NCBI GenBank assembly: GCA_002368295.1
Contig: AP018248.1
Coordinates: 4,225,396-4,236,150 of the forward strand
Source of the DNA: Tolypothrix tenuis PCC 7101
GTDB taxonomy: Bacteria; Cyanobacteriota; Cyanobacteriia; Cyanobacteriales; Nostocaceae
DNA length: 10,755 nucleotides
Reading direction: 5' to 3'
Each line of letters opens with the position of its first letter. The first letter of the stretch is position 1. Of the stretch, positions 1 through 10,755 are shown piece by piece. The notes beneath the pieces are model-generated. The model was given only the letters and a program-made list of their open reading frames with translations, was not told the origin of the DNA and did no database searches. Position numbers and translations under genes: made by a program.

Positions 1-378
1 GATGTTGCTAATAGCCTCAACAATCTGGCGCAACTCTACAAATCCCAAGGCAGATACAGCGAAGCCGAACCTTTGTATGTGCAAGCTTTATCACTCAGGC
101 GACGCAGCTTGGGGGAATCACATCCAGATGTTGCTAATAGCCTCAACAATCTGGCGGGACTCTACGATTCCCAAGGTAGATACAGCGAAGCCGAACCTTT
201 GTATGTGCAAGCTTTAGAACTAACGCGACGCAGCTTGGGGGGATCACATCCAGATGTTGCTACTAGCCTCAACAATCTGGCGCAACTCTATCGTTCCCAA
301 GGAAGATACAGCGAAGCTGAACCTTTGTATGTGCAAGCTTTGGATATTTGTGAGCGTAGTTTAGGAGTGGGTCATCCT
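1..378 (+). repeat. 126-nt (42-codon) in-frame tandem repeat, 3 copies, encoding the TPR modules
   Basis: Copies at 1-126, 127-252 and 253-378. Copies 1 and 2 differ at about 11 of 126 positions by hand count. Confidence 0.9.
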
Positions 379-435
379 TCAACAATAATAGTACGAAGCA
401 ATTATGCTATTTTCTTAAAGCAAGCATATCTTTAA
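1..435 (+). CDS. TPR (TPR_12 / kinesin-light-chain-type) repeat protein, C-terminal 144 codons; 5' end lies outside the window
   Basis: Frame 1 is open from nt 1 to the TAA at 433-435. The track ORF 73..435 is only the part after an internal TTG. The translation repeats a 42-aa module, DVA(N/T)SLNNLAxLYxSQGRYSEAEPLYVQALxLxRRSLGxSHP, three times. This is the classic NNLAxLYxxQGxYxEAEPLY TPR signature. Confidence 0.85.
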   Translation, partial: DVANSLNNLAQLYKSQGRYSEAEPLYVQALSLRRRSLGESHPDVANSLNNLAGLYDSQGRYSEAEPLYVQALELTRRSLGGSHPDVATSLNNLAQLYRSQGRYSEAEPLYVQALDICERSLGVGHPSTIIVRSNYAIFLKQAYL

Positions 436-1524: not shown

Positions 1525-3990
1525 ATGAGAATTTTATTAGTTGAAGATGATGAAGCGATCGCAGAACCACTTGCTAAATCTTTGACAACTCAACACTATG
1601 CTGTTGATGTTGCCAAAGATGGGCAAGAAGGTTGGGATTTGGCAGAGTTATTTACCTATGACTTAATTCTGCTAGATGTGATGTTACCCAAGCTGAACGG
1701 CATTAATTTCTGTCAGAGATTACGTGCAAACGGTAATCAAACACCTGTTCTTTTATTAACCGCCCAAGATAATAGTGTAAATAAAGTCATGGGTTTGGAT
1801 GCAGGTGCAGATGATTATGTTGCCAAGCCTTTTGATTTTCAGGAATTATTAGCCCGTATTCGTGCTTTATTACGTCGGGGTGGTTCTACTTTACCGCCGC
1901 TTTTAGAGTGGAAAAATTTGCGCTTAGATCCCAGCAGTTGCGAAGTCACCTGTGATGGAAAACTTGTGCATTTGACTCCCAAAGAATACGGCTTGCTTGA
2001 GCTTTTTCTTCGCAATAGTCAGCGAATTTTTAGCTGTAGTGCCTTAATAGATCATCAATGGTCATTTGAAGAACCGCCTACAGATGATACTGTCAGATCC
2101 CACATCAAAGGTTTACGGCAAAAACTGAAAGCAGCAGGAGTTGCAGACGAGCCTATTGAGACAGTTTATGGCATTGGCTATAAACTCAAGCCAGAACAAA
2201 AGAATGTAGACCAAGATAAAAAAGCCAAGGGATTAGGAAAAACCAAATTAACCTCCTCATCTCCCTCGCCTGTACCACAACAAAATCAGGTAGCGACTGG
2301 GGTGAGCAAAGTCTGGGAAGCAGTAGCGCAGAAACTTGAAGAACGAGTGGCGACGAATGAGCAAGCCTTAACGCTTTTGCAACAAGGTCAACTTAGTGAG
2401 GAAATGCGAGCTAGCGCGAGAATGGAAGCTCATAAGCTAGCTGGATCTATGGGGATGTTTGGTTCTGATGAAGGTTCTCAGTTAGCGCGAGAAATAGAAT
2501 CTCTGTGGGAAATTCAGACTCCGCTTGAGCCGCAGGTAATACAGCAGCTATCGCAATTTGTGGCGGCGTTGCGTCAAGAATTGCAACTGTTAAATTCTGA
2601 GTATAAGCAGGAGTCGCAGCCAGAACATCCCGTACAAGGAAATGGTGTTTTTGGGCATAGCGAAGAAATTACCAATGCCCCATCCCCTATGCCCGAAGCG
2701 GCGGGGCGATTGTCTGTTTCCACCCACAAGAAAATCGAGTTTCCCACCGCTTTCAATCAACGCCCCTTACTGTTGGTTGTGAATCGCGATCGCAAATTAA
2801 CTGAAGCTTTAGCCAAAGAGACTGATATTTGGGGCATACAAGTACGCTTCGCACAAACTGCGCGATCGCCCATTTCCTCCGCTAGAGAATTGATTGCTGA
2901 ATATTCCCCAGATGTCGTATTACTCGACCTTGGCAGCACTGACACCTCAGAAACTAATCTCGCTTTACTAGCAGAACTCAATGCTAGTAACTCCTCAATA
3001 CCAGTGATAGTTTTAACAGATAAAGATAGTTTGCTTGACCGGGTCAAAGTGGCGCGCTTGGGTGGTAGCGGGATTTTACAAAAGCCTGTTTCCCCTATCC
3101 AAGTATTAGAAACAGTAAATCAAATATTACAGCGCACTCGCCCTACAGCAGCAAAGGTGATGGTTGTCGATGACGATCCCCATATCTTAGCTGCTCTGCA
3201 AACCTTACTCGTGCCTTGGGGAATGAAGGTTTACACCTTAGAGAACCCCTTGCGGTTTTTGGAAGCGATCGCAGCTGCTCAACCAGATCTGTTGATTTTA
3301 GATGTGGAAATTCCAGAGATTAGCGGTATAGAACTATGCCAAGTTGTGAGGAATGATCCCCAATGGAGTGGGCTGCCCATCTTGTTTTTGACTGCTCATA
3401 ACGATACCAAAACTAGACAGCAGGTCTTCGCCGCAGGTGCCGATGACTACATCAGCAAACCCATTGTTGAACCAGAACTAATTACGAGGATACTAAATCG
3501 TTTAGAGCGATCGCGCTGGCTACGCAATCTCGCAGAATTGGATGGACTAACCCAGGTAGCGAATCGGCGTAAATCTACTCAGGATTTAAATTGGTATCTG
3601 CAATTAAGCGATCGCCACCAACAACCGCTTTGCTTCGCTATTGTGGAGCTAGACAGCCTCAAAGAAATTAATCACAAGCATGGTCATGCAGTAGGCGATC
3701 GCGTGTTATCCCAACTAGGGGAACTGTTACGACAAACTTTCCACACTCAAGATGTAGTTGGTCGTTGGGGAGGTACAGAATTTGTGGTGGGAATGGCAGG
3801 AATGACCAAAACTGATGGAGAACGGCGGCTTTTGGAACTGCTCAAAAGGCTACGCCAAATTGAATTCACGGGTGCTAATAGCCAAAAGTTTCACGTTACC
3901 TTCCGTACAGCCGTAGTTGAGTATCCTCAAGATGGTGCTAATCTGCAAGCGCTTTATCAGGCGGCGGATCGGGGAATGGGGAATGGGTAA
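1525..3990 (+). CDS. Composite two-component response regulator: REC - OmpR/PhoB wHTH - HPt - degenerate REC - REC - GGDEF (GGTEF variant)
   Basis: 821-aa ORF running from ATG 1525 to TAA 3988-3990. REC motifs: LLVEDDE, DLILLD(51)VMLP, LLLTA, AKP. wHTH motifs: LTPKEYGLLELFLRN, TVRSHIKGLRQKL, ETVYGIGYKL. HPt motif: AH(303)KLAGSMGMFGS. Third REC: VMVVDDDP, DLLILD(593)VEIP, LFLTAH, ISKP. GGDEF domain: GLTQVANRR, ELDSLKEINHKHGHAVGDRVL, RWGGTEFVV. Confidence 0.9.
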   Translation: MRILLVEDDEAIAEPLAKSLTTQHYAVDVAKDGQEGWDLAELFTYDLILLDVMLPKLNGINFCQRLRANGNQTPVLLLTAQDNSVNKVMGLDAGADDYVAKPFDFQELLARIRALLRRGGSTLPPLLEWKNLRLDPSSCEVTCDGKLVHLTPKEYGLLELFLRNSQRIFSCSALIDHQWSFEEPPTDDTVRSHIKGLRQKLKAAGVADEPIETVYGIGYKLKPEQKNVDQDKKAKGLGKTKLTSSSPSPVPQQNQVATGVSKVWEAVAQKLEERVATNEQALTLLQQGQLSEEMRASARMEAHKLAGSMGMFGSDEGSQLAREIESLWEIQTPLEPQVIQQLSQFVAALRQELQLLNSEYKQESQPEHPVQGNGVFGHSEEITNAPSPMPEAAGRLSVSTHKKIEFPTAFNQRPLLLVVNRDRKLTEALAKETDIWGIQVRFAQTARSPISSARELIAEYSPDVVLLDLGSTDTSETNLALLAELNASNSSIPVIVLTDKDSLLDRVKVARLGGSGILQKPVSPIQVLETVNQILQRTRPTAAKVMVVDDDPHILAALQTLLVPWGMKVYTLENPLRFLEAIAAAQPDLLILDVEIPEISGIELCQVVRNDPQWSGLPILFLTAHNDTKTRQQVFAAGADDYISKPIVEPELITRILNRLERSRWLRNLAELDGLTQVANRRKSTQDLNWYLQLSDRHQQPLCFAIVELDSLKEINHKHGHAVGDRVLSQLGELLRQTFHTQDVVGRWGGTEFVVGMAGMTKTDGERRLLELLKRLRQIEFTGANSQKFHVTFRTAVVEYPQDGANLQALYQAADRGMGNG
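1528..2190 (+). other. Domain: receiver (aa 2-117, phospho-Asp D51 = GAT 1675-1677) plus OmpR/PhoB-type winged-helix DNA-binding domain (aa 126-222)
   Basis: Motifs as listed for the CDS. On its own this segment is a complete OmpR-family regulator. Confidence 0.85.
2308..2574 (+). other. Domain: HPt (histidine phosphotransfer), candidate phospho-His H303 = CAT 2431-2433
   Basis: EAHKLAGSMGMFGSDEGSQLAREIE fits the HxxKGxxxxxG HPt signature, as in the CheA P1, ArcB and Ypd1 types. The flanking sequence looks helical. Confidence 0.7.
2629..2757 (+). repeat. Diverged copy of the dispersed hairpin/heptamer repeat element seen at 8164-8371, embedded in frame in the CDS (aa 369-411)
   Basis: 2681-2757 aligns without gaps to 8295-8371 with 63 of 77 identities by hand count. 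2629-2660 matches 8181-8208 plus 8223-8224 at 27 of 30 aligned positions with a 2-nt indel. 2661-2680 matches 8273-8293 at about 18 of 21. The total length is 129 nt, which is 43 codons. Confidence 0.8.
2764..3132 (+). other. Domain: degenerate receiver (aa 414-536), with the acidic pair replaced (VVNRDR instead of VDDD)
   Basis: LLLVVNRDRKL, DVVLLD(468)LG, VIVLT(498)D and LQK(520)P. The Asp, Thr and Lys positions are kept but the Mg-binding acidic pair reads N-R. Confidence 0.6.
3154..3504 (+). other. Domain: canonical receiver (aa 544-660, D593)
   Basis: KVMVVDDDPHIL, PDLLILDVEIPEISG, ILFLTAHND and DYISKP. Confidence 0.85.
3526..3969 (+). other. Domain: GGDEF-type, with GGTEF at the signature position (3769-3783) and HTQD in place of the RxxD I-site
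   Basis: DGLTQVANRR, ELDSLKEINHKHGHAVGDRVL and HTQDVVGRWGGTEFVVGM. The codons are GGA GGT ACA GAA TTT. Confidence 0.8.
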
Positions 3991-4110
3991 TGGGGAATGG
4001 GTAATGGGTAATGAGTAATGAGTAATGAGTAATGAGTAATGGGTAATGAGTAATGGGTAATGAGTAATGGGTAATGAGTAATGGGTAATGAGTAATGAGT
4101 AATGGGTAAT
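3971..4110. repeat. STRR-type heptamer tandem array, 20 copies of G(G/A)G(G/T)AAT
   Basis: Unit-by-unit count: GGGGAAT x3, GGGTAAT x8, GAGTAAT x9, all in strict 7-nt register from 3971 to 4110. The TAA stop of the upstream CDS (3988-3990) lies in the third unit. Confidence 0.95.
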
Positions 4111-4203
4111 TGGGTGTTTGGGGTTTGTCATTAATTATTTCTCCCCTGCTCCCTGCCCCCCTGCCTTACTCCGTCTCCCCTTATTGTTAAGGTAGGATGC
4201 TAT

Positions 4204-4560
4204 ATGTTTGAATTATTAGATATTTTTTTTACATCTATAAGCTTTATATCTCAGTTAAATTACCATTTCGGCAATCAAGGGTTGATATGGTTACATTTGT
4301 TATCTGATTGCTTAATTTCTCTGGGGTATTATGCGATTTCTGCGATATTGGTCTATTTCGGGAATCAGCGCCAAGATTCGCCTGCAAAAAATCTGTTGCT
4401 GTTGTTTGGAGCGTTTCTAGCGGTTTGTGGCACAACTCATCTGATGGCAGTTTGGACATTTTGGGATGCAAATTATTGGGTATTTGGGGTTCAGAAAGCC
4501 CTTACTGCAATAATTTCAATTTATACTTTTGTAGCGCTATTAAAATTATTGCCCAAATCC
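4204..4560 (+). other. Domain: three-helix membrane module resembling the ethylene/Cu(I)-binding domain of plant ETR1 and cyanobacterial SynEtr1
   Basis: LSD(35)CLISLGYYAISAILVYF, FGAFLAVC(75)GTTH(79)LMAVWTF and QK(98)ALTAIISIYTF. Compared with ETR1 from memory: ISD(25)FFIAIAYFSIPLELIYF, FGAFIVLC(65)GATH(69)LINLWTF and AK(91)VLTAVVS. The Asp-to-Cys spacing is 40 residues in both. Confidence 0.75.
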
Positions 4561-7500
4561 CTAGAAAAACCTAGTAAAACTGAGTTAGAAGCAGCTAATC
4601 AAAAATTGCAGCAGCAAATCAGCGAATATCAAAGGCTTGAGGAGGCTTTGCGCCAAAGCGAATATCAGTATGTAACTTTAGCTCAAACCGCACCAGTGGG
4701 CATTTTCCGTACCGATGCTGCTGGAAACTGCACTTTTATGAATGAGCTAGCCTGTCAGATTATGGGTGCTTCTTTAGAAAAGGCGCTGGGAAAAGGCTGG
4801 ATAGAATCATTGCATCCAGAAGACCGCGATCGCGTGATTAGGCAATGGCAAGAAACTACACAGCAAAACTTACCCTTTAAATGCGAGCATCGTTTTCGCA
4901 ATCCCCAGGGTAAAACTGTTTGGGTGTTAACTCAAGCAGTACCGGAGGCGGGAAGTCAAGGAGAATTTACAAATTTTATTGGCACTATTACAAATATTAG
5001 CGATCGCAAACGCACTGAAGAAGCTCTCAGTCAAAGTGAAGCCACCCTCCGCAGCTTCTTTAATAGCGCCTCAATGCTGATGGGAATTGTGGAAATTGTG
5101 GATCATGATGTCTTGCATATTTCTGATAACCTAGCAGCCGCGAACTTTTATGGACTAACACCAGCCGCAATGCAGAATCGGCTAGCCAGCGAAATGGGTG
5201 CGCCGCAAGAGTATATCAACCAATGGATTGAGAAATATCGGGAAGCTGAACACACCCATGCTCCCGTTCGCTTTGAATATACTCACGAGACTCCCACCGC
5301 TAAAAAATGGCTGTCAGCGACAGTTTCAGCAATTAATAGCGATTGCAGTGGTCGTCAACGATTTTCTTACGTAGTTGAAGATATTAGCGATCGCAAATCA
5401 GCAGAGGAAGAATTACAAAAACAAGCATTTCTCCTGGACTTGACTCACGACTGCATCATGGTTCGCAATTTCAACGGTGAGATTGACTTTTGGAATCGTG
5501 GTGCAGAGGAGATGTACGGTTGGACGAAACAAGAAGCGATCGGCAAAATTTCTCATGATTTCTTGCAAACTCAATTTCCCCAACCGCTAGCCGAAATTGA
5601 AGCCGAACTTTTGCAAACCGGACGTTGGTCAGGTGAACTCGTACATACTAAACGTGATGGTACTCCTATTGTGGTGTCGAGTAGTTGGGCGTTACAGCGC
5701 GATGAACAAGGTAAACCAGAGAGAACTCTGGAAATTAATAACGATATTACCGAACGCAAGCGCGCTGAAGAAGAACTTCGCCACCTCAGCACAGCCCTAA
5801 CAAGCGCAGTAGAAGGTATCTCACAGTTAGATAAGGAAGGACGTTATATCAAGGTCAATCCCGCTTATGCCAACATGGCTGGTTATCAGCCAGAGGAAAT
5901 GATTGGTGTGGACTGGCTATTGACTGTCCATCCAGAAGATGCAGAAAAATTGCGGGTTGCGTACCAACAAATGCTAGTTAATGGCAAAGTGGAAGCGGAA
6001 GCTAGAGGCGTGCGGAAAGATAAAACAGTTTTTGATAAACAAGTAGTGATGGTCACAGCCTATGATCGCCAACAGCAATTCATCGGCCATTATTGCTTTA
6101 TGAAAGACATTAGCGATCGCCGCGAAATTGATCGCCTCAAAGATGAATTTGTCTCGATAGTTAGCCATGAATTGCGAACACCCCTCACTTCTATTTCCGG
6201 TGCATTAGATTTATTAGCAGGTGGAGTGCTGCAAACCCAACCAGAAGAAGCGCAACGGATGTTAAATATTGCGGCGAGTAATACCGATAGGCTAGTACGT
6301 CTAATTAATGACATCCTCGATATCGAGCGCATTGAGTCTGGTAAGGTACAAATGACTCCGGAACACTGCGATGCTGCCGATTTGATGAATCAATCAATAG
6401 AAACAGTAGAGGAAATGGCAGAGCAAGCAGGGGTAAAATTAGCAGTTTATCCCCTATCCGCGCCCCTTTGGGCTGATCCAGACCGCATTATTCAAGTTTT
6501 CACCAACTTACTCAGCAATGCGATTAAATTTTCCCCTGAGGGTTCTACGGTTTCATTGAGTGCGGAAATTACAGCCGAGAAAGCAGCACCCTCCAGCAAA
6601 CAAATTTTGTTCAAAGTTAAAGACCAAGGTCGAGGTATCCCAGCAGAGAAACTAGAATCGATTTTTGAGCGTTTTGGACAAGTTGATGCCTCAGACTCCC
6701 GCCAAAAAGGCGGTACAGGTTTAGGTTTAGCTATTTGTCGCAGTATTTTGCAGCATCATCAAGGGCAAATTTGCGTTGAAAGTACCTTAGGAGAAGGCAG
6801 CACATTCTTCTTTACCTTGCCTATTGCCTCAAAAGATGACACAGAAACTATAGAACCAGAAAACACAGGCGATCGCAAAAATATCAATCCATCTTTACTT
6901 CCAACAGAGAATAAATTCGCTGTTCTCCCTTTAGTAATTGAGTGTGACGATGACCCCTCAGTGCGGGTTGTCGTGCAAACCATGCTAGAACGACAGGGTT
7001 ATCGCGTCTTAGCAGCTGCATCAGGACAAGAAGCTGTAGAACAGGCAAAATTGCATCATCCTGATGCAATTATTCTCAACTTGATGATGCCAGATATGAA
7101 CGGTTGGGAAACCCTAGCGATTCTCAAACAGCAGCCACACACCCAAAACATCCCGGTGATTATTCTCAGTGGTTTGTTACCCGATGCTCATAAAAGTCTG
7201 CCACACAACATTAGCGACTGGATTGTCAAACCTCCCACTAGCAAGTTGTTGTACCAAGCCTTAGAAAAAGCTACCGCTAGCCAAAATCAATCAATCAAAG
7301 TTTTGATTATTGAAGACGACACAGATTTGGCACAGGTATTGATTGCTTTATTCAATCGTCACAACATCCTCACCTTTTATGCCCAAACCGGAAAAGAAGC
7401 TATTCAAGTCAGCCAGAACATCATCCCTGACTTATTAGTACTGGATTTGGGATTGCCAGAAAATGACGGTTTTGCCGTAGTCGATTGGCTACGACAACAT

Positions 7501-7707
7501 CAACGCCTATGTCACGTGCCTTTAGTTGTGTACACAGCACGCGATTTAGATGATAGCGATCGCGATCGCTTAAAGTTAGGGCAAACCCTCTTCCTCACTA
7601 AAGGGCGCATTACTCCCCAGGAATTTGAACAGCGAGTGATTAACTTACTCAACCGCATGATTGGTAGCAATAGCCAAGTTAGCCCCTCCGGAGAATTCAA
7701 AATTTAA
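4204..7707 (+). CDS. Hybrid sensor histidine kinase: ETR1-like ethylene-binding membrane domain - coiled coil - 4 PAS - HisKA - HATPase_c - receiver (Asn at phospho-site) - receiver
   Basis: 1167-aa ORF. AGGTAGGA lies 7 nt upstream of the ATG at 4204. H-box SIVSH(655)ELRTPLTSI, N-box NLLSNAIKFSP, G1 KDQGRGIP, G2 GGTGLGLAICRSI. The PAS blocks end in ISDRK, ISDRK, ITERK and ISDRR junctions. Confidence 0.92.
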   Translation: MFELLDIFFTSISFISQLNYHFGNQGLIWLHLLSDCLISLGYYAISAILVYFGNQRQDSPAKNLLLLFGAFLAVCGTTHLMAVWTFWDANYWVFGVQKALTAIISIYTFVALLKLLPKSLEKPSKTELEAANQKLQQQISEYQRLEEALRQSEYQYVTLAQTAPVGIFRTDAAGNCTFMNELACQIMGASLEKALGKGWIESLHPEDRDRVIRQWQETTQQNLPFKCEHRFRNPQGKTVWVLTQAVPEAGSQGEFTNFIGTITNISDRKRTEEALSQSEATLRSFFNSASMLMGIVEIVDHDVLHISDNLAAANFYGLTPAAMQNRLASEMGAPQEYINQWIEKYREAEHTHAPVRFEYTHETPTAKKWLSATVSAINSDCSGRQRFSYVVEDISDRKSAEEELQKQAFLLDLTHDCIMVRNFNGEIDFWNRGAEEMYGWTKQEAIGKISHDFLQTQFPQPLAEIEAELLQTGRWSGELVHTKRDGTPIVVSSSWALQRDEQGKPERTLEINNDITERKRAEEELRHLSTALTSAVEGISQLDKEGRYIKVNPAYANMAGYQPEEMIGVDWLLTVHPEDAEKLRVAYQQMLVNGKVEAEARGVRKDKTVFDKQVVMVTAYDRQQQFIGHYCFMKDISDRREIDRLKDEFVSIVSHELRTPLTSISGALDLLAGGVLQTQPEEAQRMLNIAASNTDRLVRLINDILDIERIESGKVQMTPEHCDAADLMNQSIETVEEMAEQAGVKLAVYPLSAPLWADPDRIIQVFTNLLSNAIKFSPEGSTVSLSAEITAEKAAPSSKQILFKVKDQGRGIPAEKLESIFERFGQVDASDSRQKGGTGLGLAICRSILQHHQGQICVESTLGEGSTFFFTLPIASKDDTETIEPENTGDRKNINPSLLPTENKFAVLPLVIECDDDPSVRVVVQTMLERQGYRVLAAASGQEAVEQAKLHHPDAIILNLMMPDMNGWETLAILKQQPHTQNIPVIILSGLLPDAHKSLPHNISDWIVKPPTSKLLYQALEKATASQNQSIKVLIIEDDTDLAQVLIALFNRHNILTFYAQTGKEAIQVSQNIIPDLLVLDLGLPENDGFAVVDWLRQHQRLCHVPLVVYTARDLDDSDRDRLKLGQTLFLTKGRITPQEFEQRVINLLNRMIGSNSQVSPSGEFKI
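4666..6123 (+). other. Domain array: four PAS/PAC modules (aa ~155-268, 280-397, 405-520, 528-640)
   Basis: Each module is about 115 aa with PAS-like cores, for example APVGIFRTDAAGNCTFMN, DCIMVRNFNGEIDFWN and EGISQLDKEGRYIKVN. PAC-like ends (FIGTITNISDRK, TLEINNDITERK, FIGHYCFMKDISDRR) are followed by charged coiled linkers (EEAL, EEEL). Confidence 0.8.
6130..6825 (+). other. Domains: HisKA (H655 = CAT 6166-6168) and HATPase_c
   Basis: The H, N, G1 and G2 boxes listed for the CDS. Confidence 0.9.
6922..7269 (+). other. Domain: receiver with Asn (AAC 7078-7080) at the phospho-acceptor position
   Basis: VIECDDDPSV, PDAIILN(959)LMMPDMNG, VIILSG and IVKP. The canonical motif would read LD. Confidence 0.7.
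7297..7653 (+). other. Domain: canonical C-terminal receiver (D1081 = GAT 7444-7446)
   Basis: KVLIIEDDTDL, PDLLVLDLGLPENDG, LVVYTARD and FLTKG. Confidence 0.85.
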
Positions 7708-8163
7708 GCCGAAAATTCTCTCCCCTACTCCCTCTGCGGCCTAAGGTGTACACCAAGTCTTATAACTTAGCCCCGTAAAGTTTCGATCCTCCCTGATTCC
7801 CCTTTTTAAGGGTATTTAGGGTATCTAACCAAACGTAAATCATTTTTTATAAAGACCAGATAAATTATCTATTAAGAATACATTAACCTTCGTAAAAATA
7901 CTGGGATATTGCTCTGGTACATGATAAATTTTCATCAAATTTAAGTATTAATCATGAATTGTCTAAATTAGTAATCAATAAAAATACAAACAAACGTTTT
8001 ATTGATTAGTCATGACAGTATCGGGGATTTTCCCTGAAACTCTTATGCTTAGGTAACAAACGTCATCAGCTGATTCCTCTTTAGGGTGTCTAGGTGCTTC
8101 TATATTTCTCTATGTACATCATTGGTTTTCTTCTCCCTAATGCCAAAATGCTGATTACTAATT

Positions 8164-8371
8164 CCCAATGAAAAACTCCACCCACAAGGTGATGGAGTTT
8201 TTGGGCATTGGGAATTGGGCATAGGGGAGGCAGTGCGTTGCTGGTTTCCAGTATTGTGCAAACTGCCGTCAGGGGAAAGAAAATACCAATGCCCTATGCC
8301 CTATGCCCCAAGCGGCGGGGCGGCTATCCCTCTCCACCCACAAGGGGATGGAGTTTCCCGCCGCTTTCAAT
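8164..8371. repeat. Compound dispersed-repeat element: two related hairpins, heptamer arms and a nested 42-nt hairpin insertion
   Basis: Hairpin 1: CCCAATG-AAAAACTCCA (8164-8180) pairs with TGGAGTTTTT-ggg-CATTGGG (8193-8212). Hairpin 2: AAGCGGCGGG (8310-8319) pairs with CCCGCCGCTT (8357-8366), with an inner stem CTCCA (8332-8336) / TGGAG (8349-8353). Heptamer-like arms GGGCAT(T/A)GGG on the left face CCCTATGCCC on the right. The central hairpin GGCAGT (8229-8234) / ACTGCC (8262-8267) is flanked by the direct repeat AGGGGA (8223-8228 and 8271-8276). Confidence 0.8.
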
Positions 8372-8519
8372 GAATAGTAATTGGCAGCTTTTTTATGTTC
8401 ATCTCTCCAATTCATAATTAATACTGAAATTTCACATCAATTGTGTACATAGCTCTGGCAACAATCGCAAGCTATAACAAATCACTTTATCTATTCCTGG
8501 ATTTAATTAAGGTATGAAC

Positions 8520-9731
8520 ATGAGTCAAGAAAAATATTTGATGACACCCAAGCTACATTCTATTTCCCATAATCAATCACGCATTTTGATAGTATCAATG
8601 CGTGAAGTTGCTAAGTTAGTAGGGTTTTGTAGCTTATATGAATTTGAAGATGTCATCTGCGATGCTGATGCTGCTGATATGCTCACACCTTTGAGTACAG
8701 ATGATGGTATCGTTAGAAAAATCTACAAATTAGCTAAGTATTTAACTAATTCTAAAAAATTAGCAAATTTCTTAGTACCGGGAACTAATCCATACTTTAT
8801 TGAACAAGAGTATGAATTGTTTTTTCCAGTATTTAATTCTCCCTTTGAACTTTTCGCACTACACGCGTTTAAAAATTGGCGACAAAAATGTAGCCAAGCA
8901 GTTTGTTATATAGATGAATTTTGGGAAACATATCTTCAGCCATCCAGTCTCTATTTTCTGGAATATTTAAAAGATTTCGACCATATTTTTCTCGGCAATA
9001 AAAATTCAGTTGAAGCAGTTGCTAAAATTACAGGTCGTCCTTGTAGCTATCTACCACCTGGGATTGATACATTAAAATTCTGTCCATATCCACAGTTACC
9101 TCACCGCAGTATTGATGTTTCCTATTTGGGTCGGCGTTCACCTGTAACTCATCAAGCTCTATTAGAGTATGCACAACAGCAACAAATTTTTTATTACTAC
9201 GATACAATCAAAGTCTCCGGAACTAAAAATGCGGCTAAACAACAAACATTTGCGGTGAATAATGCCCGAGAACACCGCATTTTGTTTGCTAATTTAAACA
9301 AGAGAAGCCGTTATTTCTTTGCTAACCGCGCACGCATTAACGAAGCAGAAGCGACAAAAAATAAACAAGAGTTTGGCCCACGCTTCTTTGAGGGTGCGGC
9401 TGCTGGTGCAGTCCTCATTGGTGATCCACCAATGACAGAGGAATTCTACAAACATTTTGATTGGCCGGATGCAATTATCAAAGTTCCCTTTGATGCTCCA
9501 GAAATTGGCGAGATTATTTCTGATTTGGATTCACAGCCTGAGCGCTTGGCAAGAATTAGCAGAGATAATGTTGTCAATACATTACTCCGACACGACTGGG
9601 TATATCGCTTACGCACAGTATTTGAGACAATAGATGTTAAACCTAGCCAAATCATGTTAGCTAGAGAAGCTAAGTTAAAGAAACTAGCTTATGAAATCCA
9701 GCACACATCAAATGCATCATTAGTTAATTAG
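8520..9731 (+). CDS. CgeB-family / Glyco_trans_1_2-like putative glycosyltransferase (hypothetical protein)
   Basis: The longest ORF starts at ATG 8514. ATG 8520 is preferred for two reasons. AAGGT (8509-8513) sits 6 nt upstream of it, and the paralogue at 10454 aligns residue for residue from this Met. The C-terminal part, FGPRFFEGAAAGAVLIGDP...FDWPDAIIKV...ISDLDSQPERLARISRDNVVNTLLRHDWVYRL, resembles the R-x-FE-x-x-A-x-G...HT/W-x-x-R pattern of the Glyco_trans_1_2 (CgeB-like) family. The upstream motif IDVSYLGRR also fits. The assignment comes from remembered motifs only. Confidence 0.6.
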   Translation: MSQEKYLMTPKLHSISHNQSRILIVSMREVAKLVGFCSLYEFEDVICDADAADMLTPLSTDDGIVRKIYKLAKYLTNSKKLANFLVPGTNPYFIEQEYELFFPVFNSPFELFALHAFKNWRQKCSQAVCYIDEFWETYLQPSSLYFLEYLKDFDHIFLGNKNSVEAVAKITGRPCSYLPPGIDTLKFCPYPQLPHRSIDVSYLGRRSPVTHQALLEYAQQQQIFYYYDTIKVSGTKNAAKQQTFAVNNAREHRILFANLNKRSRYFFANRARINEAEATKNKQEFGPRFFEGAAAGAVLIGDPPMTEEFYKHFDWPDAIIKVPFDAPEIGEIISDLDSQPERLARISRDNVVNTLLRHDWVYRLRTVFETIDVKPSQIMLAREAKLKKLAYEIQHTSNASLVN

Positions 9732-9778
9732 AAACTCATGATTATTTTGTACAAGCCATTTTAAGTGCCTTGTGTATG

Positions 9779-9814
9779 GGGAAAGTAAATTGAAACTTTT
9801 CCCATTTTATTTTT
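9779..9814 (+). terminator. Candidate intrinsic terminator downstream of the 8520-9731 CDS
   Basis: The stem GGGAAAGT (9779-9786) pairs with ACTTTTCCC (9795-9803): 8 bp with one bulged T. The loop is AAATTGAA and the tail is ATTTTATTTTT (9804-9814). Confidence 0.5.
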
Positions 9815-9833
9815 GCAGAATCAAATTATATTC

Positions 9834-9978
9834 AGGACTTACGCAACTGGCACAGTGATCCTCTGGCATAAGAGTCAAGAGTCAAGAGTCAAGGGTCAAA
9901 AATTTAGGTTTTTTGGACTCTTGACATTTGACCCTGGACAAACATAAACGAAAAAAATATGACACTTGCGTAAGTCCT
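9834..9978. mobile_element. MITE-like non-autonomous element (145 bp) with perfect 13-bp terminal inverted repeats and an internal heptamer hairpin
   Basis: AGGACTTACGCAA (9834-9846) is the exact reverse complement of TTGCGTAAGTCCT (9966-9978). Inside, AAGAGTC x3 plus AAGGGTC (9870-9897) face the inverted partner GGACTCTTGACATTTGACCCT (9915-9935). There is no ORF. Confidence 0.5.
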
Positions 9979-10453
9979 AATATTTTATAAAATATTCGGC
10001 TGATTGATATTTATGATTGAAAACATAGCAATTTAAAATCAAGAATGCAACAGTAGGGAGACAGCAATGCTGTGACCTCTAGAATATATTGATGTTTCGC
10101 AAACATTATTTGATTAAATTTTAAAAAGCTTTTCAGCAAAAGATTAGCAACTAACCTATAAGTTTTTCTAAATTACTGACATTCTCTTACTCCTTGTCTA
10201 TTTTTAGATAGTAGTGTATAGATATAATTAAAATTTATTCTGGCTCTACTAGGTTCTCAAATTTCATAATTCTTTAGTTTCTAACTGTAGATTACGTGTT
10301 TTGATATAAGAAGTTCCTCAAAGCTTGTGAAAGTCAAAAATCACATTTCAAAATTCAATTTTCAATCATAAAAATCCTAAATTTGGGAAAAGAAACAATT
10401 TACTAGCGACAAGTAGCTTGCTGTAAAACACTTTATTAAATCAGGGTAATATC

Positions 10454-10755
10454 ATGACCAACAATAAATATTTAATAAAACCTAAATTTAATTCTTTTTC
10501 TAATGAAAAATCACGCATTTTGTTAGTATCAATGCGTGAACTGGCTAACTTAGTGGCTTTTTGTACCTTATATGAATTTGAAGATGTACTATATGATACC
10601 GATGCTGTTGATATGGTTCAACCATTGAGTGCTAACGACGGTATCTTAAGAAAAATCTACAAACTAGCTAAGTATTTAACTAACTCCAAGCAATTGGCTG
10701 AGTTACTTGTTCCAGCGAATCATCCATACTTGCTTGAGCAAGAATATGAACTATT
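10454..10755 (+). CDS. Tandem paralogue of the 8520-9731 protein, N-terminal 100 codons; 3' end outside the window
   Basis: The frame is open from ATG 10454 to the window end. It is absent from the ORF track because no stop codon is reached. AGGG lies 8 nt upstream. The translation MTNNKYLIKPKFNSFSNEKSRILLVSMRELANLVAFCTLYEFEDV...RKIYKLAKYLTNSK...EQEYEL is 67 of 100 identical, without gaps, to residues 1-100 of the 8520 protein by hand count. Confidence 0.8.
   Translation, partial: MTNNKYLIKPKFNSFSNEKSRILLVSMRELANLVAFCTLYEFEDVLYDTDAVDMVQPLSANDGILRKIYKLAKYLTNSKQLAELLVPANHPYLLEQEYEL

What the first reader, a model, noticed from the sequence alone, without database searches (positions are those of the whole stretch)
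4204..4578. Hybrid kinase starts with a plant-ethylene-receptor-type (ETR1-like) copper/ethylene-binding membrane domain
The first ~120 aa form three hydrophobic helices. Their conserved residues line up with my memory of Arabidopsis ETR1: LSD35CLISLGYYAISAILVYF vs ISD25FFIAIAYFSIPLELIYF; FGAFLAVC75GTTH79LMAVWTF vs FGAFIVLC65GATH69LINLWTF; QK98ALTAIIS vs AK91VLTAVVS. The Asp-to-Cys spacing (40 residues) and the Cys-x3-His copper ligands (TGT 4426-4428, CAT 4438-4440) are preserved. Cyanobacterial ethylene-binding-domain proteins are known. Synechocystis Slr1212 (SynEtr1/UirS) binds ethylene and affects phototaxis and surface properties, but there the domain is coupled to a cyanobacteriochrome GAF domain. 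Here it is wired to four PAS domains, a kinase core and two receivers, with no GAF or bilin module that I can see. This may be a differently wired gas or copper sensor.
Basis: partly seen in the sequence, partly recalled or inferred. Interest (0 to 1): 0.7.

Follow-up and report, generated by a model that had tools for sequence, protein, structure and literature searches.

The report
Ethylene-receptor-type sensor kinase in a cyanobacterium
The gene really does begin with the same copper/ethylene-binding membrane domain as plant ethylene receptors, but this domain and its pairing with PAS, kinase and receiver modules are already common in cyanobacteria, so it is an ordinary, slightly unusual member of a known family.

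Summary
Observation confirmed. ORF 4204-7707 (+) encodes 1167 aa. Residues 27-120 match Pfam ETR1_N (PF25487) at E 8e-33, 113 bits against a cutoff of 27, without gaps. D35, C75, H79 and K98 align with ETR1 D25, C65, H69 and K91. Four PAS domains, HisKA/HATPase_c and two receivers follow. No GAF is present.

The "differently wired" reading is only partly supported. An exhaustive search finds 6783 representative proteins with this domain. At least 18 protein clusters, mostly Nostocales, share EBD + PAS + kinase + receiver without GAF. An EBD-PAS-kinase protein, AzoEtr1, has been shown to bind ethylene.

- The gene sits in a cluster conserved across Nostocales. Directly upstream is a REC-wHTH-Hpt-REC-REC-GGDEF protein, which supplies the Hpt a hybrid kinase needs. 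The kinase's first receiver has Asn at the phospho-acceptor position.
- This EBD is a derived variant, shared with three related strains. It has lost the near-invariant N-terminal PHGHCYLW motif. It is also substituted at two positions reported essential for ethylene binding in ETR1 (P36 to S, I62 to L). It remains under purifying selection.
- Ethylene binding is therefore plausible but not assured.

This is a new member of a known kind, of modest interest.

The parts
4204..7707 (+). Hybrid sensor histidine kinase gene, 1167 aa: EBD, coiled-coil linker, 4 PAS, HisKA, HATPase_c, REC1 (pseudo-receiver), REC2
   Evidence: ORF. Pfam and NCBIfam domains. 95% identical to the 'PAS domain S-box protein' of Tolypothrix sp. 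PCC 7910 (P0009).
4204..4281 (+). N-terminal tail, aa 1-26. It stands in place of the PHGHCYLW motif of other bacterial EBDs and reads F-I-S-Q-L-N-Y-H-F-G here.
   Evidence: Cys is present in 150/150 representatives and His in 147/150, but both are absent here. dN/dS is 0.4-1.5 among four close strains. pLDDT is below 50 for aa 2-16.
4282..4563 (+). ETR1_N ethylene-binding-type domain, aa 27-120, three transmembrane helices. Key residues: D35 (4306), Y42, I45, S46 (Pro in ETR1), L72 (Ile in ETR1), C75 (4426), H79 (4438), K98 (4495).
   Evidence: PF25487 at E 8.4e-33 and 113 bits. BLASTP against ETR1 at E 4e-16. Hydropathy. AF2 helices. dN/dS 0.13-0.38.
4564..4650 (+). Coiled-coil or signalling-helix linker, about aa 121-149, between TM3 and the first PAS domain
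   Evidence: AF2 helix 125-139 with pLDDT 77-91. The sequence TELEAANQKLQQQISEYQRLEEAL is conserved in orthologues.
4651..6135 (+). Four PAS domains, approximately aa 150-273, 280-402, 410-523 and 530-644, each ending in an I(S/T)(D/E)R(K/R) motif
   Evidence: PAS_4 gives 4 stretches and TIGR00229 sensory_box gives 4 stretches. Motif positions. Boundaries are approximate.
6139..6825 (+). Kinase core: HisKA aa 646-713 with H-box HELRTPL (His655, nt 6166), and HATPase_c aa 758-874 with N, G1 (DQGRGI) and G2 (GGTGLGL) boxes
   Evidence: dN/dS 0.05 against Tolypothrix PCC 7910.
6925..7293 (+). REC1, about aa 908-1030. Asn959 occupies the position of the CheY Asp57 phospho-acceptor, so this is a probable pseudo-receiver.
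   Evidence: 'AIILNLMMP' is conserved in all full-length orthologues read.
7294..7683 (+). REC2, about aa 1031-1160, with the canonical E/D/D1081/T/K quintet. This is the probable internal phospho-acceptor.
1525..3990 (+). Upstream same-strand gene, 821 aa: REC (D51), OmpR-type wHTH, Hpt (His303 in HKLAGSMG), REC, REC, then a GGDEF domain whose motif reads GGTEF. Probable phosphorelay partner.
   Evidence: Pfam, NCBIfam, residues. The same gene lies directly upstream of the orthologous kinase in Tolypothrix PCC 7910, Nostoc NIES-4103, Chlorogloeopsis PCC 9212 and Nostoc carneum NIES-2107. GGTEF is conserved in all five.
3971..4115 (.). Heptamer tandem array (GGGTAAT/GAGTAAT, 20.6 copies) in the 213-nt spacer between the two genes
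   Evidence: It is not part of the sensor, but it occupies the spacer and overlaps the upstream stop codon.

Best explanation
The gene encodes a membrane-anchored hybrid histidine kinase. Its N-terminal three-helix domain is a true homologue of the copper-dependent ethylene-binding domain (EBD) of plant ETR1, Synechocystis SynEtr1 and Azospirillum AzoEtr1. It belongs to an orthologous group conserved in heterocystous cyanobacteria (Nostocales).

Most likely mechanism, step by step:
1. A Cu(I) ion is held by Cys75 and His79 of helix 2 and Asp35 of helix 1. It binds ethylene, or a similar small unsaturated ligand, inside the membrane.
2. The change passes through the Asp35-Lys98 bridge to helix 3, then through the coiled-coil linker and the four PAS domains.
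3. This alters autophosphorylation at His655.
4. The phosphoryl group moves to Asp1081 of REC2. REC1, with Asn959, cannot accept it.
5. It then moves to His303 of the Hpt domain in the protein encoded directly upstream, and on to that protein's receiver domains.
6. This controls the partner's OmpR-type DNA-binding domain and its GGTEF (variant GGDEF) domain.

Shown here: homology, residue register, domain order, presence of catalytic residues, conserved gene neighbourhood and purifying selection. Inferred: copper and ethylene binding, the direction of regulation, the phosphotransfer route and the physiological output.

The EBD is a derived variant, so its affinity or ligand may differ from canonical receptors.
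For: - **Homology and register:** PF25487 at 113 bits, E 8e-33, ungapped. BLASTP to ETR1 at E 4e-16 with D/Y/I/C/H/K aligned. The same columns are near-invariant in 150 representatives.
- **Fold:** three TM helices.
- **Family size:** 6783 representatives at E<=1e-3 and 4316 at E<=1e-10, with the match at or near the N-terminus in all 150 listed.
- **Architecture is common:**
- **Experimental precedent:** AzoEtr1, an EBD-PAS-kinase, binds 14C-ethylene and signals to a neighbouring response regulator (PMC11819568). SynEtr1[1-130] binds ethylene (PMC6682694). D25 and K91 have roles in Cu/ethylene binding and signal transfer (PMC10266040).
- **Kinase and receiver residues are present:**
- **Conserved neighbour:** the REC-wHTH-Hpt-REC-REC-GGDEF gene lies directly upstream in four other genomes. 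A diguanylate-cyclase-domain gene also neighbours GeiEtr2 (PMC6682694).
- **Selection:** EBD core dN/dS is 0.13-0.38 among four strains, so the domain is maintained by selection.
- **Relay precedent:** in Anabaena CdgK/CdgS the route His, then REC2, then Hpt, then REC-GGDEF was demonstrated, with REC1 judged a pseudo-receiver (PMC9927289).
Against: - Two positions reported essential for ethylene binding in ETR1 are substituted. P36 is Ser46 here, as in only 7/150 representatives. I62 is Leu72, found in 0/150 (essentiality per PMC6586836, citing Wang et al. 2006).
- The PHGHCYLW motif ahead of helix 1 is entirely replaced, although its Cys is present in 150/150 representatives.
- The domain deviates at 15 of 51 columns that are at least 90% conserved. 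The median representative deviates at 1 and the maximum is 9.
- EBD identity to canonical orthologues is 47-58%, where the C-terminal core is 70-84%. Among canonical orthologues the two track each other, at 64-76% against 70-80%.
- dN in the EBD is 3.5 times that of the rest of the gene.
- The purifying selection seen could reflect only a need for membrane helices.
- The partner's GGTEF motif lacks the usual acidic third residue, so cyclase activity is doubtful.
- In this window the small single-domain receiver gene found downstream in relatives is absent.
- No binding or phosphotransfer data exist for this protein.
Confidence: 0.55

Rival explanations
1. The domain is a re-tuned EBD. It still holds Cu(I) through D35/C75/H79. 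Loss of the HGHC motif, P36 to S, I62 to L and the new Cys36 next to Asp35 have changed what it reads. It may be a lower-affinity, faster-releasing ethylene sensor, or a sensor of copper status, redox state or another small ligand.
For: - The Cu-ligand triad and K98 are retained, while many otherwise invariant positions have changed.
- The derived state is shared by four strains and kept under purifying selection, with omega 0.13-0.38. That fits a maintained new function better than decay.
- Cys36 is present in all four strains but in only 3/150 representatives.
- There is precedent that a single natural substitution, D25N, lowers affinity about 100-fold yet leaves a working receptor, most often in cyanobacteria (PMC10266040, PMC11971883).
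Against: - No direct evidence for any alternative ligand.
- AtETR1 itself lacks the PHGHCYLW motif and deviates at 21/51 of the same columns, yet binds ethylene with nanomolar affinity (PMC10266040). Divergence alone therefore predicts little.
- Ser for Pro and Leu for Ile were not the substitutions tested in ETR1, which were alanines.
Confidence: 0.25
2. The EBD no longer senses anything. It survives as a three-helix membrane anchor and dimerisation module, and the four cytoplasmic PAS domains provide the real inputs.
For: - Evolution of the EBD is accelerated relative to the rest of the protein. dN is 0.063 against 0.018, and Fisher p is 0.02 for aa 1-125.
- The N-tail evolves nearly neutrally, with omega up to 1.5.
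- The universally conserved Cys and two binding-essential residues are lost.
- Four PAS domains offer ample alternative input.
Against: - D35, Y42, I45, C75, H79, K98, T101 and A102 are all retained in four strains. An anchor would not need polar or charged residues within the predicted membrane helices.
- The stretch LLLLFGAF..CGTTHLM around the Cu site is nearly identical in all four strains. Only the two residues before Cys75 differ in one strain.
- Omega of the core stays well below 1.
Confidence: 0.17
3. The resemblance to ETR1 is a chance similarity between hydrophobic helices.
For: None beyond the general risk that membrane helices align spuriously.
Against: The Pfam score is 113 bits against a cutoff of 27, with E 8e-33. 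There are 4316 homologues at E<=1e-10. The polar signature residues are in exact register.
Confidence: 0.01

Closest known systems
AzoEtr1 of Azospirillum brasilense (EBD-PAS-histidine kinase; PMC11819568)
   Same: An N-terminal three-helix EBD is followed directly by PAS and a kinase core, with no GAF. The key residues even share numbering (D35, C75). A response-regulator gene is adjacent. AzoEtr1[1-130] binds 14C-ethylene.
   Different: AzoEtr1 is 525 aa with one PAS domain and no receivers. It is reported to keep all seven binding residues. The window protein has four PAS domains and two receivers, Ser and Leu at two of the seven positions, and an Hpt-containing multidomain partner.
SynEtr1 / UirS / PixA (Slr1212) of Synechocystis PCC 6803, and GeiEtr1/GeiEtr2 of Geitlerinema PCC 7105 (PMC6682694)
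   Same: These are cyanobacterial EBD histidine kinases. GeiEtr2 also has PAS and a C-terminal receiver, and a diguanylate-cyclase-domain gene nearby. Ethylene binding has been demonstrated for SynEtr1 and for whole Geitlerinema cells.
   Different: These proteins carry a GAF domain, which in SynEtr1 is a bilin-binding cyanobacteriochrome. They keep one N-terminal Cys. The window protein has no GAF and no Cys in its N-terminal tail.
Arabidopsis ETR1 (plant subfamily 1 ethylene receptor)
   Same: The EBD is homologous at 32% identity, with D25/C65/H69/K91 equivalents present. Both are hybrid kinases with a C-terminal receiver.
   Different: ETR1 is EBD-GAF-kinase-REC, has Cys4/Cys6 disulfides and signals through CTR1/EIN2. 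The window protein has PAS domains instead of GAF, two receivers, and a bacterial Hpt/response-regulator partner.
Canonical Nostocales orthologues, e.g. Nostoc sp. 106C (P0012), Nostoc sp. NIES-4103 (P0015) and Chlorogloeopsis fritschii PCC 9212 (P0025). All are annotated only as 'PAS domain S-box protein' or 'hybrid histidine kinase'.
   Same: They form the same orthologous group. The C-terminal 530 aa are 70-84% identical. They share EBD-PAS(n)-kinase-REC-REC, the same Asn in REC1 and the same upstream REC-wHTH-Hpt-REC-GGDEF(GGTEF) gene.
   Different: They keep PHGHCYLW, Pro36 and Ile62, and have 3-6 PAS domains. Where a locus was read, a single-domain REC gene lies downstream, directly after the kinase in four of the five genomes. 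The window clade (this window, Calothrix membranacea FACHB-236, Tolypothrix PCC 7910 and Nostoc carneum NIES-2107) has the derived EBD.
CdgK/CdgS (All2875/All2874) phosphorelay of Anabaena PCC 7120 (PMC9927289)
   Same: The logic matches: a membrane hybrid kinase with multiple PAS domains, a pseudo-receiver REC1 and a functional REC2, then Hpt, then a REC-GGDEF protein encoded next door.
   Different: This is an analogue, not an orthologue. CdgK senses through TM-CHASE and has a GAF and its own Hpt. CdgS is a simple REC-GGDEF with an active GGEEF-type site. Here the Hpt is on the partner, and the partner's motif is GGTEF.

Membership tests
ETR1_N / ethylene-binding-domain (EBD) protein family (Pfam PF25487) | Significant match to the family profile over its full length | tested here: met
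   113 bits against a cutoff of 27, E 8.4e-33, profile positions 2-95 of 97, ungapped.
ETR1_N / ethylene-binding-domain (EBD) protein family (Pfam PF25487) | Three transmembrane helices at the extreme N-terminus | tested here: met
   Hydrophobic segments at aa 32-50, 63-84 and 98-117. AF2 helices at 25-55, 61-85 and 89-120.
ETR1_N / ethylene-binding-domain (EBD) protein family (Pfam PF25487) | Cu(I) ligands Cys-x3-His in helix 2, plus Asp in helix 1 and Lys in helix 3 | tested here: met
   C75, H79, D35 and K98 are in register with ETR1 C65, H69, D25 and K91.
Functional ethylene receptor (binds ethylene) | The ETR1 residues reported as essential for ethylene binding are all conserved. The set is D25, Y32, I35, P36, I62, C65 and H69. 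That list of seven is from my memory of Wang et al. 2006. PMC6586836 confirms I35, P36, I62, C65 and H69 as essential. | tested here: not met
   Five of seven are identical. P36 is S46 and I62 is L72. Among 150 representatives, Pro occurs in 142 and Ile in 149.
Functional ethylene receptor (binds ethylene) | Saturable, copper-dependent 14C-ethylene binding by the isolated domain | not testable with these tools
   This needs expression of aa 1-130 and radioligand assays, as done for SynEtr1 and AzoEtr1 (PMC6682694, PMC11819568).
Bacterial/cyanobacterial EBD subfamily | Conserved N-terminal (F/Y)-I-P-H-G-H-C-Y-L-W motif with a single Cys ahead of helix 1 | tested here: not met
   The window reads F-I-S-Q-L-N-Y-H-F-G. 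Cys occurs in 150/150, the first His in 147/150 and Trp in 148/150 representatives. More distant bacterial EBDs (P0005-P0008) also keep an (H/Q)-C pair there.
Plant ETR1-type receptor architecture | A GAF domain directly after the EBD, and N-terminal Cys pair for disulfide-linked dimers | tested here: not met
   No GAF family at E<=1. No Cys in aa 1-35.
SynEtr1/UirS-type dual light/ethylene receptor | A cyanobacteriochrome GAF domain with a bilin-binding Cys | tested here: not met
   No GAF or PHY family was detected.
Hybrid histidine kinase (HisKA family) | H-box His, N/G1/G2 ATP-binding boxes, and a receiver with the D-D-D-T-K quintet | tested here: met
   H655 in HELRTPL, NLLSNAIKF, DQGRGI and GGTGLGL. 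REC2 has E/D/D1081/T/K, while REC1 has Asn959 at the acceptor site.
Nostocales EBD-kinase / REC-wHTH-Hpt-REC-GGDEF gene cluster (unnamed orthologous group) | The same upstream partner gene on the same strand | tested here: met
   Window 1525-3990. The same arrangement is found in L001, L002, L004 and L007.
Nostocales EBD-kinase / REC-wHTH-Hpt-REC-GGDEF gene cluster (unnamed orthologous group) | A single-domain REC gene, a 145-aa gene and a Mo-nitro_C gene downstream | tested here: not met
   These are absent from window 7707-10755. Homology to relatives stops at nt 7673.

The most novel reading that the evidence does not exclude
A small clade of Nostocales carries a re-engineered ethylene-binding domain. 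The clade is this strain, Calothrix membranacea FACHB-236, Tolypothrix PCC 7910 and Nostoc carneum NIES-2107. Its EBD has lost the otherwise universal HGHC motif, changed two binding-essential residues, and gained a Cys next to the Cu-ligating Asp. The domain stays under purifying selection and may have acquired a different affinity or ligand, such as fast-release ethylene sensing, copper or redox status, or another small gas. It would be a natural experiment on what the conserved N-terminal motif and Pro36/Ile62 do.
Probability: 0.2. Interest if true: 0.6.

Novelty: new member of a known kind. Interest (0 to 1): 0.3.

Why it matters
- **Family size.** The finding shows that plant-type ethylene-binding domains are a large bacterial sensor family. 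There are thousands of representatives, fused to many outputs, and databases label most of them only as "PAS domain S-box protein".
- **Hidden domains.** At least one orthologue, and by sequence several more, has its annotated start inside the domain. This hides the domain from annotation-based surveys.
- **A testable pathway.** No ethylene receptor of a heterocystous cyanobacterium turned up as characterised in the papers searched here. The conserved cluster with an Hpt-bearing REC-wHTH-GGDEF partner gives a concrete, testable pathway from a membrane gas sensor to transcription, c-di-GMP-type output, or both.
- **A cheap comparison set.** The derived EBD variant can be compared with canonical orthologues to learn what the PHGHCYLW motif, Pro36 and Ile62 contribute.
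- **Limits.** None of this changes the current picture of ethylene sensing. It adds one member and one variant.

Tried and rejected
- **PDB sequence search** with aa 1-149 gave no hit even at E<=10. No relative of this domain has a solved structure in that copy of the PDB, so I did not run a structure-library comparison on the pLDDT-70 model.
- **Word-indexed homologue search** with the 133-aa domain returned only 8 short proteins. It was too insensitive, so I replaced it with the exhaustive phmmer search.
- **EBD decay in orthologues.** I suspected that the EBD is decaying or truncated in many orthologues, because P0010, P0011, P0014, P0018, P0022 and P0023 start inside helix 2. I rejected this for the one case I could check. 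Upstream DNA of Nostoc sp. T09 encodes an intact in-frame EBD with its own Met, so that truncation is a start-codon call. The Anabaena PCC 7120 and Calothrix NIES-2100 orthologues could not be checked because their DNA was not on record.
- **CdgK/CdgS identity.** I suspected the locus might be the known CdgK/CdgS (all2875/all2874) system. I rejected this because CdgK is TM-CHASE-PAS5-GAF-kinase-REC-REC-Hpt and CdgS is a plain REC-GGDEF (PMC9927289).
- **Original papers.** Wang et al. 2006, Lacey & Binder 2016 and Binder 2020 are not held in the library. The full list of seven residues therefore rests partly on my memory and partly on PMC6586836.
- **RNA and signal scans.** Rfam, tRNA and promoter/terminator scans of the window gave nothing relevant.
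- **NCBIfam.** It has no model for the EBD.
Full report
**1.

The window has one long + strand ORF at 4204..7707, encoding 1167 aa. ATG 4204 is the first possible start after the upstream stop. An AGGTAGGA-like stretch lies a few bases upstream.

GAT at 4306 is D35, TGT at 4426-4428 is C75 and CAT at 4438-4440 is H79.

Pfam's ETR1_N model (PF25487, "Ethylene receptor 1-like, N-terminal domain") matches aa 27-120 to profile positions 2-95 of 97. The score is 113 bits against a gathering cutoff of 27, with E 8.4e-33. Ninety-four residues align to 94 positions, so the register is unbroken.

It pairs D35/D25, Y42/Y32, I45/I35, C75/C65, H79/H69 and K98/K91.

Hydropathy gives three membrane-length segments at aa 32-50, 63-84 and 98-117, and none later. 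An AlphaFold2 model (mean pLDDT 70, from a shallow 9-sequence alignment) gives helices 25-55, 61-85 and 89-120, followed by a confident linker helix 125-139.

The rest of the protein is four PAS domains, HisKA (646-713), HATPase_c (758-874) and two receiver domains. No GAF family appears even at E<=1. This is far beyond chance.

**2. The domain family is large and this wiring is common**

An exhaustive phmmer search with aa 1-133 covered 1.84 billion cluster representatives. It found 6783 proteins at E<=1e-3 and 4316 at E<=1e-10. In all 150 listed, the match lies at or near the N-terminus.

A search with the whole protein found a 95%-identical protein in Tolypothrix sp. PCC 7910, annotated only as "PAS domain S-box protein". 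It also found a series of Nostocales orthologues: Nostoc sp. 106C, T09, NIES-4103 and NIES-3756, Chlorogloeopsis fritschii PCC 9212, and others.

Going by the precomputed Pfam sets in that table:

| Domain set | Clusters (90% identity) |
|---|---|
| ETR1_N + PAS + HisKA/HATPase_c + Response_reg, no GAF | 18 |
| ETR1_N + PAS + kinase, no receiver, no GAF | 14 |
| ETR1_N with a GAF | 13 |

These Pfam lists are sets of domains, not ordered architectures.

The literature already covers this ground:
- GeiEtr2 of Geitlerinema is EBD-PAS-PAC-GAF-kinase-receiver (PMC6682694).
- AzoEtr1 of Azospirillum is EBD-PAS-kinase with no GAF. Its first 130 residues bind 14C-ethylene, and D35A and C75A mutants were built (PMC11819568).

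It is not a new one.

**3. Genomic context points to a phosphorelay**

*The partner gene.* The gene directly upstream on the same strand (1525-3990, 821 aa) has this domain order:
- a receiver domain;
- an OmpR-type winged helix;
- an Hpt domain;
- two more receiver domains;
- a GGDEF domain.

The Hpt has the expected His (H303 in HKLAGSMG). Receiver domains 1 and 3 have full acidic pockets. Receiver 2 keeps the Asp but lacks the acidic pair.

A hybrid kinase needs an Hpt to pass phosphate on, and the neighbour supplies one. The same gene lies directly upstream of the orthologous kinase in Tolypothrix PCC 7910, Nostoc NIES-4103, Chlorogloeopsis PCC 9212 and Nostoc carneum NIES-2107.

In all five genomes its GGDEF motif reads GGTEF. 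This is a conserved variant lacking the usual acidic third residue, so cyclase activity is uncertain.

*The kinase.* It has an intact H-box (His655) and N/G1/G2 boxes. Its first receiver has Asn959 where CheY has the phospho-acceptor Asp57. This substitution is seen in every full-length orthologue I read. The second receiver is canonical, with Asp1081.

*The analogue.* The Anabaena CdgK/CdgS system works by the route His, then REC2, then Hpt, then REC-GGDEF, with REC1 judged a pseudo-receiver from genetics (PMC9927289). It is an analogue and not an orthologue, because CdgK senses through a CHASE domain and carries its own Hpt.

*Downstream.* In the five relatives whose loci I read, a small single-domain receiver gene lies downstream of the kinase. 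In three of them a 145-aa gene and a Mo-nitro_C gene follow it directly. In this window, homology to relatives stops at nt 7673, just before the stop codon. The downstream region is different.

**4. This EBD is a derived variant**

I aligned the window with the 150 best-scoring representatives.

*The N-terminal motif.* The segment ahead of helix 1 is almost invariant in the representatives: F/Y-I-P-H-G-H-C-Y-L-W. Cys occurs in 150/150, the first His in 147/150 and Trp in 148/150. The window reads F-I-S-Q-L-N-Y-H-F-G, so every conserved residue from Pro to Trp is replaced. More distant bacterial EBDs also keep an (H/Q)-C pair there.

*The binding residues.* Inside the domain, Pro36 of ETR1 is Ser46 here (Ser in 7/150). 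Ile62 is Leu72 (Leu in 0/150). I35, P36 and I62 are listed among the residues essential for ethylene binding in ETR1, by Schott-Verdugo et al. citing Wang et al. 2006 (PMC6586836). The complete list of seven (D25, Y32, I35, P36, I62, C65, H69) is from my memory of Wang et al., which the library does not hold.

*Overall divergence.* The window deviates at 15 of 51 columns that are at least 90% conserved. The median representative deviates at 1 and the maximum is 9.

*Caveat.* AtETR1 deviates at 21 of those columns and lacks the N-terminal motif altogether, yet binds ethylene at nanomolar affinity. Divergence by itself does not show loss of binding.

**5. The variant is shared and under selection**

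A scan of one genome per species found the same variant in two more strains:

| Strain | EBD identity to the window |
|---|---|
| Calothrix membranacea FACHB-236 | 99% |
| Nostoc carneum NIES-2107 | 77% |

With Tolypothrix PCC 7910, that makes four strains. They are about 94-95% identical in nucleotides across the gene.

Pairwise Nei-Gojobori estimates among the four strains:

| Region | dN/dS |
|---|---|
| EBD core, aa 27-120 | 0.13-0.38 |
| N-terminal tail, aa 1-26 | 0.4-1.5 |
| PAS region | 0.05-0.17 |
| Kinase and receivers | 0.08-0.11 |

Against Tolypothrix PCC 7910, dN in the EBD core is 0.063 and in the rest 0.018. The excess of non-synonymous changes gives Fisher p = 0.02 for aa 1-125 and p = 0.08 for aa 27-120 alone.

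Against canonical orthologues the EBD is 47-58% identical while the C-terminal 530 aa are 70-84% identical. Among canonical orthologues the two regions track each other, at 64-76% against 70-80%.

All four strains keep D35, Y42, I45, C75, H79 and K98. All four also have Cys36 next to Asp35, which only 3/150 representatives have.

My reading is this. The domain evolved quickly on the branch leading to this clade. Its N-tail now drifts. Its core, and especially the copper site, is still maintained.

**6. Explanations**

*Best-supported, about 0.55.* A Cu(I)-dependent EBD senses ethylene or a close analogue in the membrane. It modulates the kinase through helix 3 (the Asp35-Lys98 bridge proposed for ETR1 in PMC10266040), the coiled-coil linker and the PAS array. 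Phosphate then flows from His655 to Asp1081, then to the partner's His303, then to the partner's receivers. The output is DNA binding, the GGTEF domain, or both.

What is shown and what is inferred:
- Shown here: homology, register, catalytic residues, conserved synteny and purifying selection.
- Inferred: ligand binding, the sign of regulation, the phosphotransfer route and the phenotype.

*Rivals.*
- A re-tuned EBD with altered affinity or ligand, about 0.25.
- An EBD reduced to a membrane anchor, with the PAS domains as the real sensors, about 0.17.
- Chance similarity, which is excluded.

**7. Novelty and score**

The domain family has a curated Pfam model and has been studied experimentally in plants, Synechocystis, Geitlerinema and Azospirillum. 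The architecture is widespread. This protein is a new member of a known kind.

What is mildly new:
- the conserved Nostocales cluster with an Hpt-bearing REC-wHTH-GGDEF(GGTEF) partner;
- the derived EBD clade that has lost the PHGHCYLW motif.

No paper found in these searches described either one, though my access to the key papers was incomplete. Interest is 0.3.

**8. Source**

The window is from a heterocystous cyanobacterium close to, but not identical with, Tolypothrix sp. PCC 7910, Calothrix membranacea FACHB-236 and Nostoc carneum NIES-2107.

Noticed in passing
window 3971-4115: About 20.6 tandem copies of a heptamer (GGGTAAT/GAGTAAT) fill most of the 213-nt spacer between the response-regulator gene and the kinase gene, and overlap the upstream stop codon at 3990. 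This resembles the short tandemly repeated heptamers I recall from heterocystous cyanobacteria. The spurious minus-strand ORF 3850-4131 (PITHYSLLITHYSL...) is just this array.
   Followed up: partly
window 6925-7293 (kinase REC1, Asn959): The first receiver domain of the kinase has Asn where the phospho-acceptor Asp should be (AIILNLMMP). All full-length orthologues read share this. It is a probable pseudo-receiver, as was concluded from genetics for REC1 of Anabaena CdgK, although that domain keeps its Asp.
   Followed up: partly
window 3769-3783 (partner protein aa 749-753); also L001, L002, L004, L006, L007: The GGDEF domain of the upstream partner reads GGTEF in all five related genomes and in this window. 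This is a conserved variant of the catalytic motif, so the domain may not make c-di-GMP.
   Followed up: partly
L005 (Nostoc sp. T09) about 540-770; proteins P0010, P0011, P0014, P0018, P0022, P0023: Several database orthologues are annotated as starting at an internal Met inside helix 2 (M-S/A/T-I/V-W-T-L-W). In Nostoc sp. T09 the upstream DNA encodes the complete EBD in frame with its own Met. The public annotation therefore hides the ethylene-binding domain there.
   Followed up: partly
window 7673-8514: Similarity to all three close relatives ends at nt 7673, about 35 nt before the kinase stop codon. The last 11 residues and the downstream region differ. In Nostoc carneum NIES-2107, the one close relative read there, and in more distant orthologues, a single-domain receiver gene follows the kinase. 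Here there are about 800 nt without a convincing ORF, bounded by 25-nt inverted repeats (7937-7961 / 8408-8432). A glycosyltransferase-like ORF follows at 8514-9731 (PF13524, E 1e-10). This may be an insertion or rearrangement scar.
   Followed up: partly
window 4216-4815 compared with L006 (Calothrix membranacea FACHB-236): Identity to C. membranacea is mosaic, at 84-99.5% per 200 nt. The EBD-coding stretch is 98-99.5% identical while the gene as a whole is about 94% identical. This suggests recent recombination among related strains over the 5' end of the gene.
   Followed up: partly
window 1-435 and 492-700: A TPR_12/TPR_10 repeat ORF with a 126-nt period occupies the first 435 nt. In Tolypothrix PCC 7910 the corresponding region aligns at many offsets, indicating many more repeat copies. 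It is followed by a separate 63-nt-period tandem repeat (3.3 copies, 88% matches) that looks non-coding.
   Followed up: no
window 4309-4311 (Cys36): A Cys directly follows the Cu-associated Asp35 (S-D-C) in all four strains of the derived clade, but in only 3 of 150 representative EBDs. It appears together with the loss of the universal N-terminal Cys. Whether the two changes are linked is unknown.
   Followed up: no
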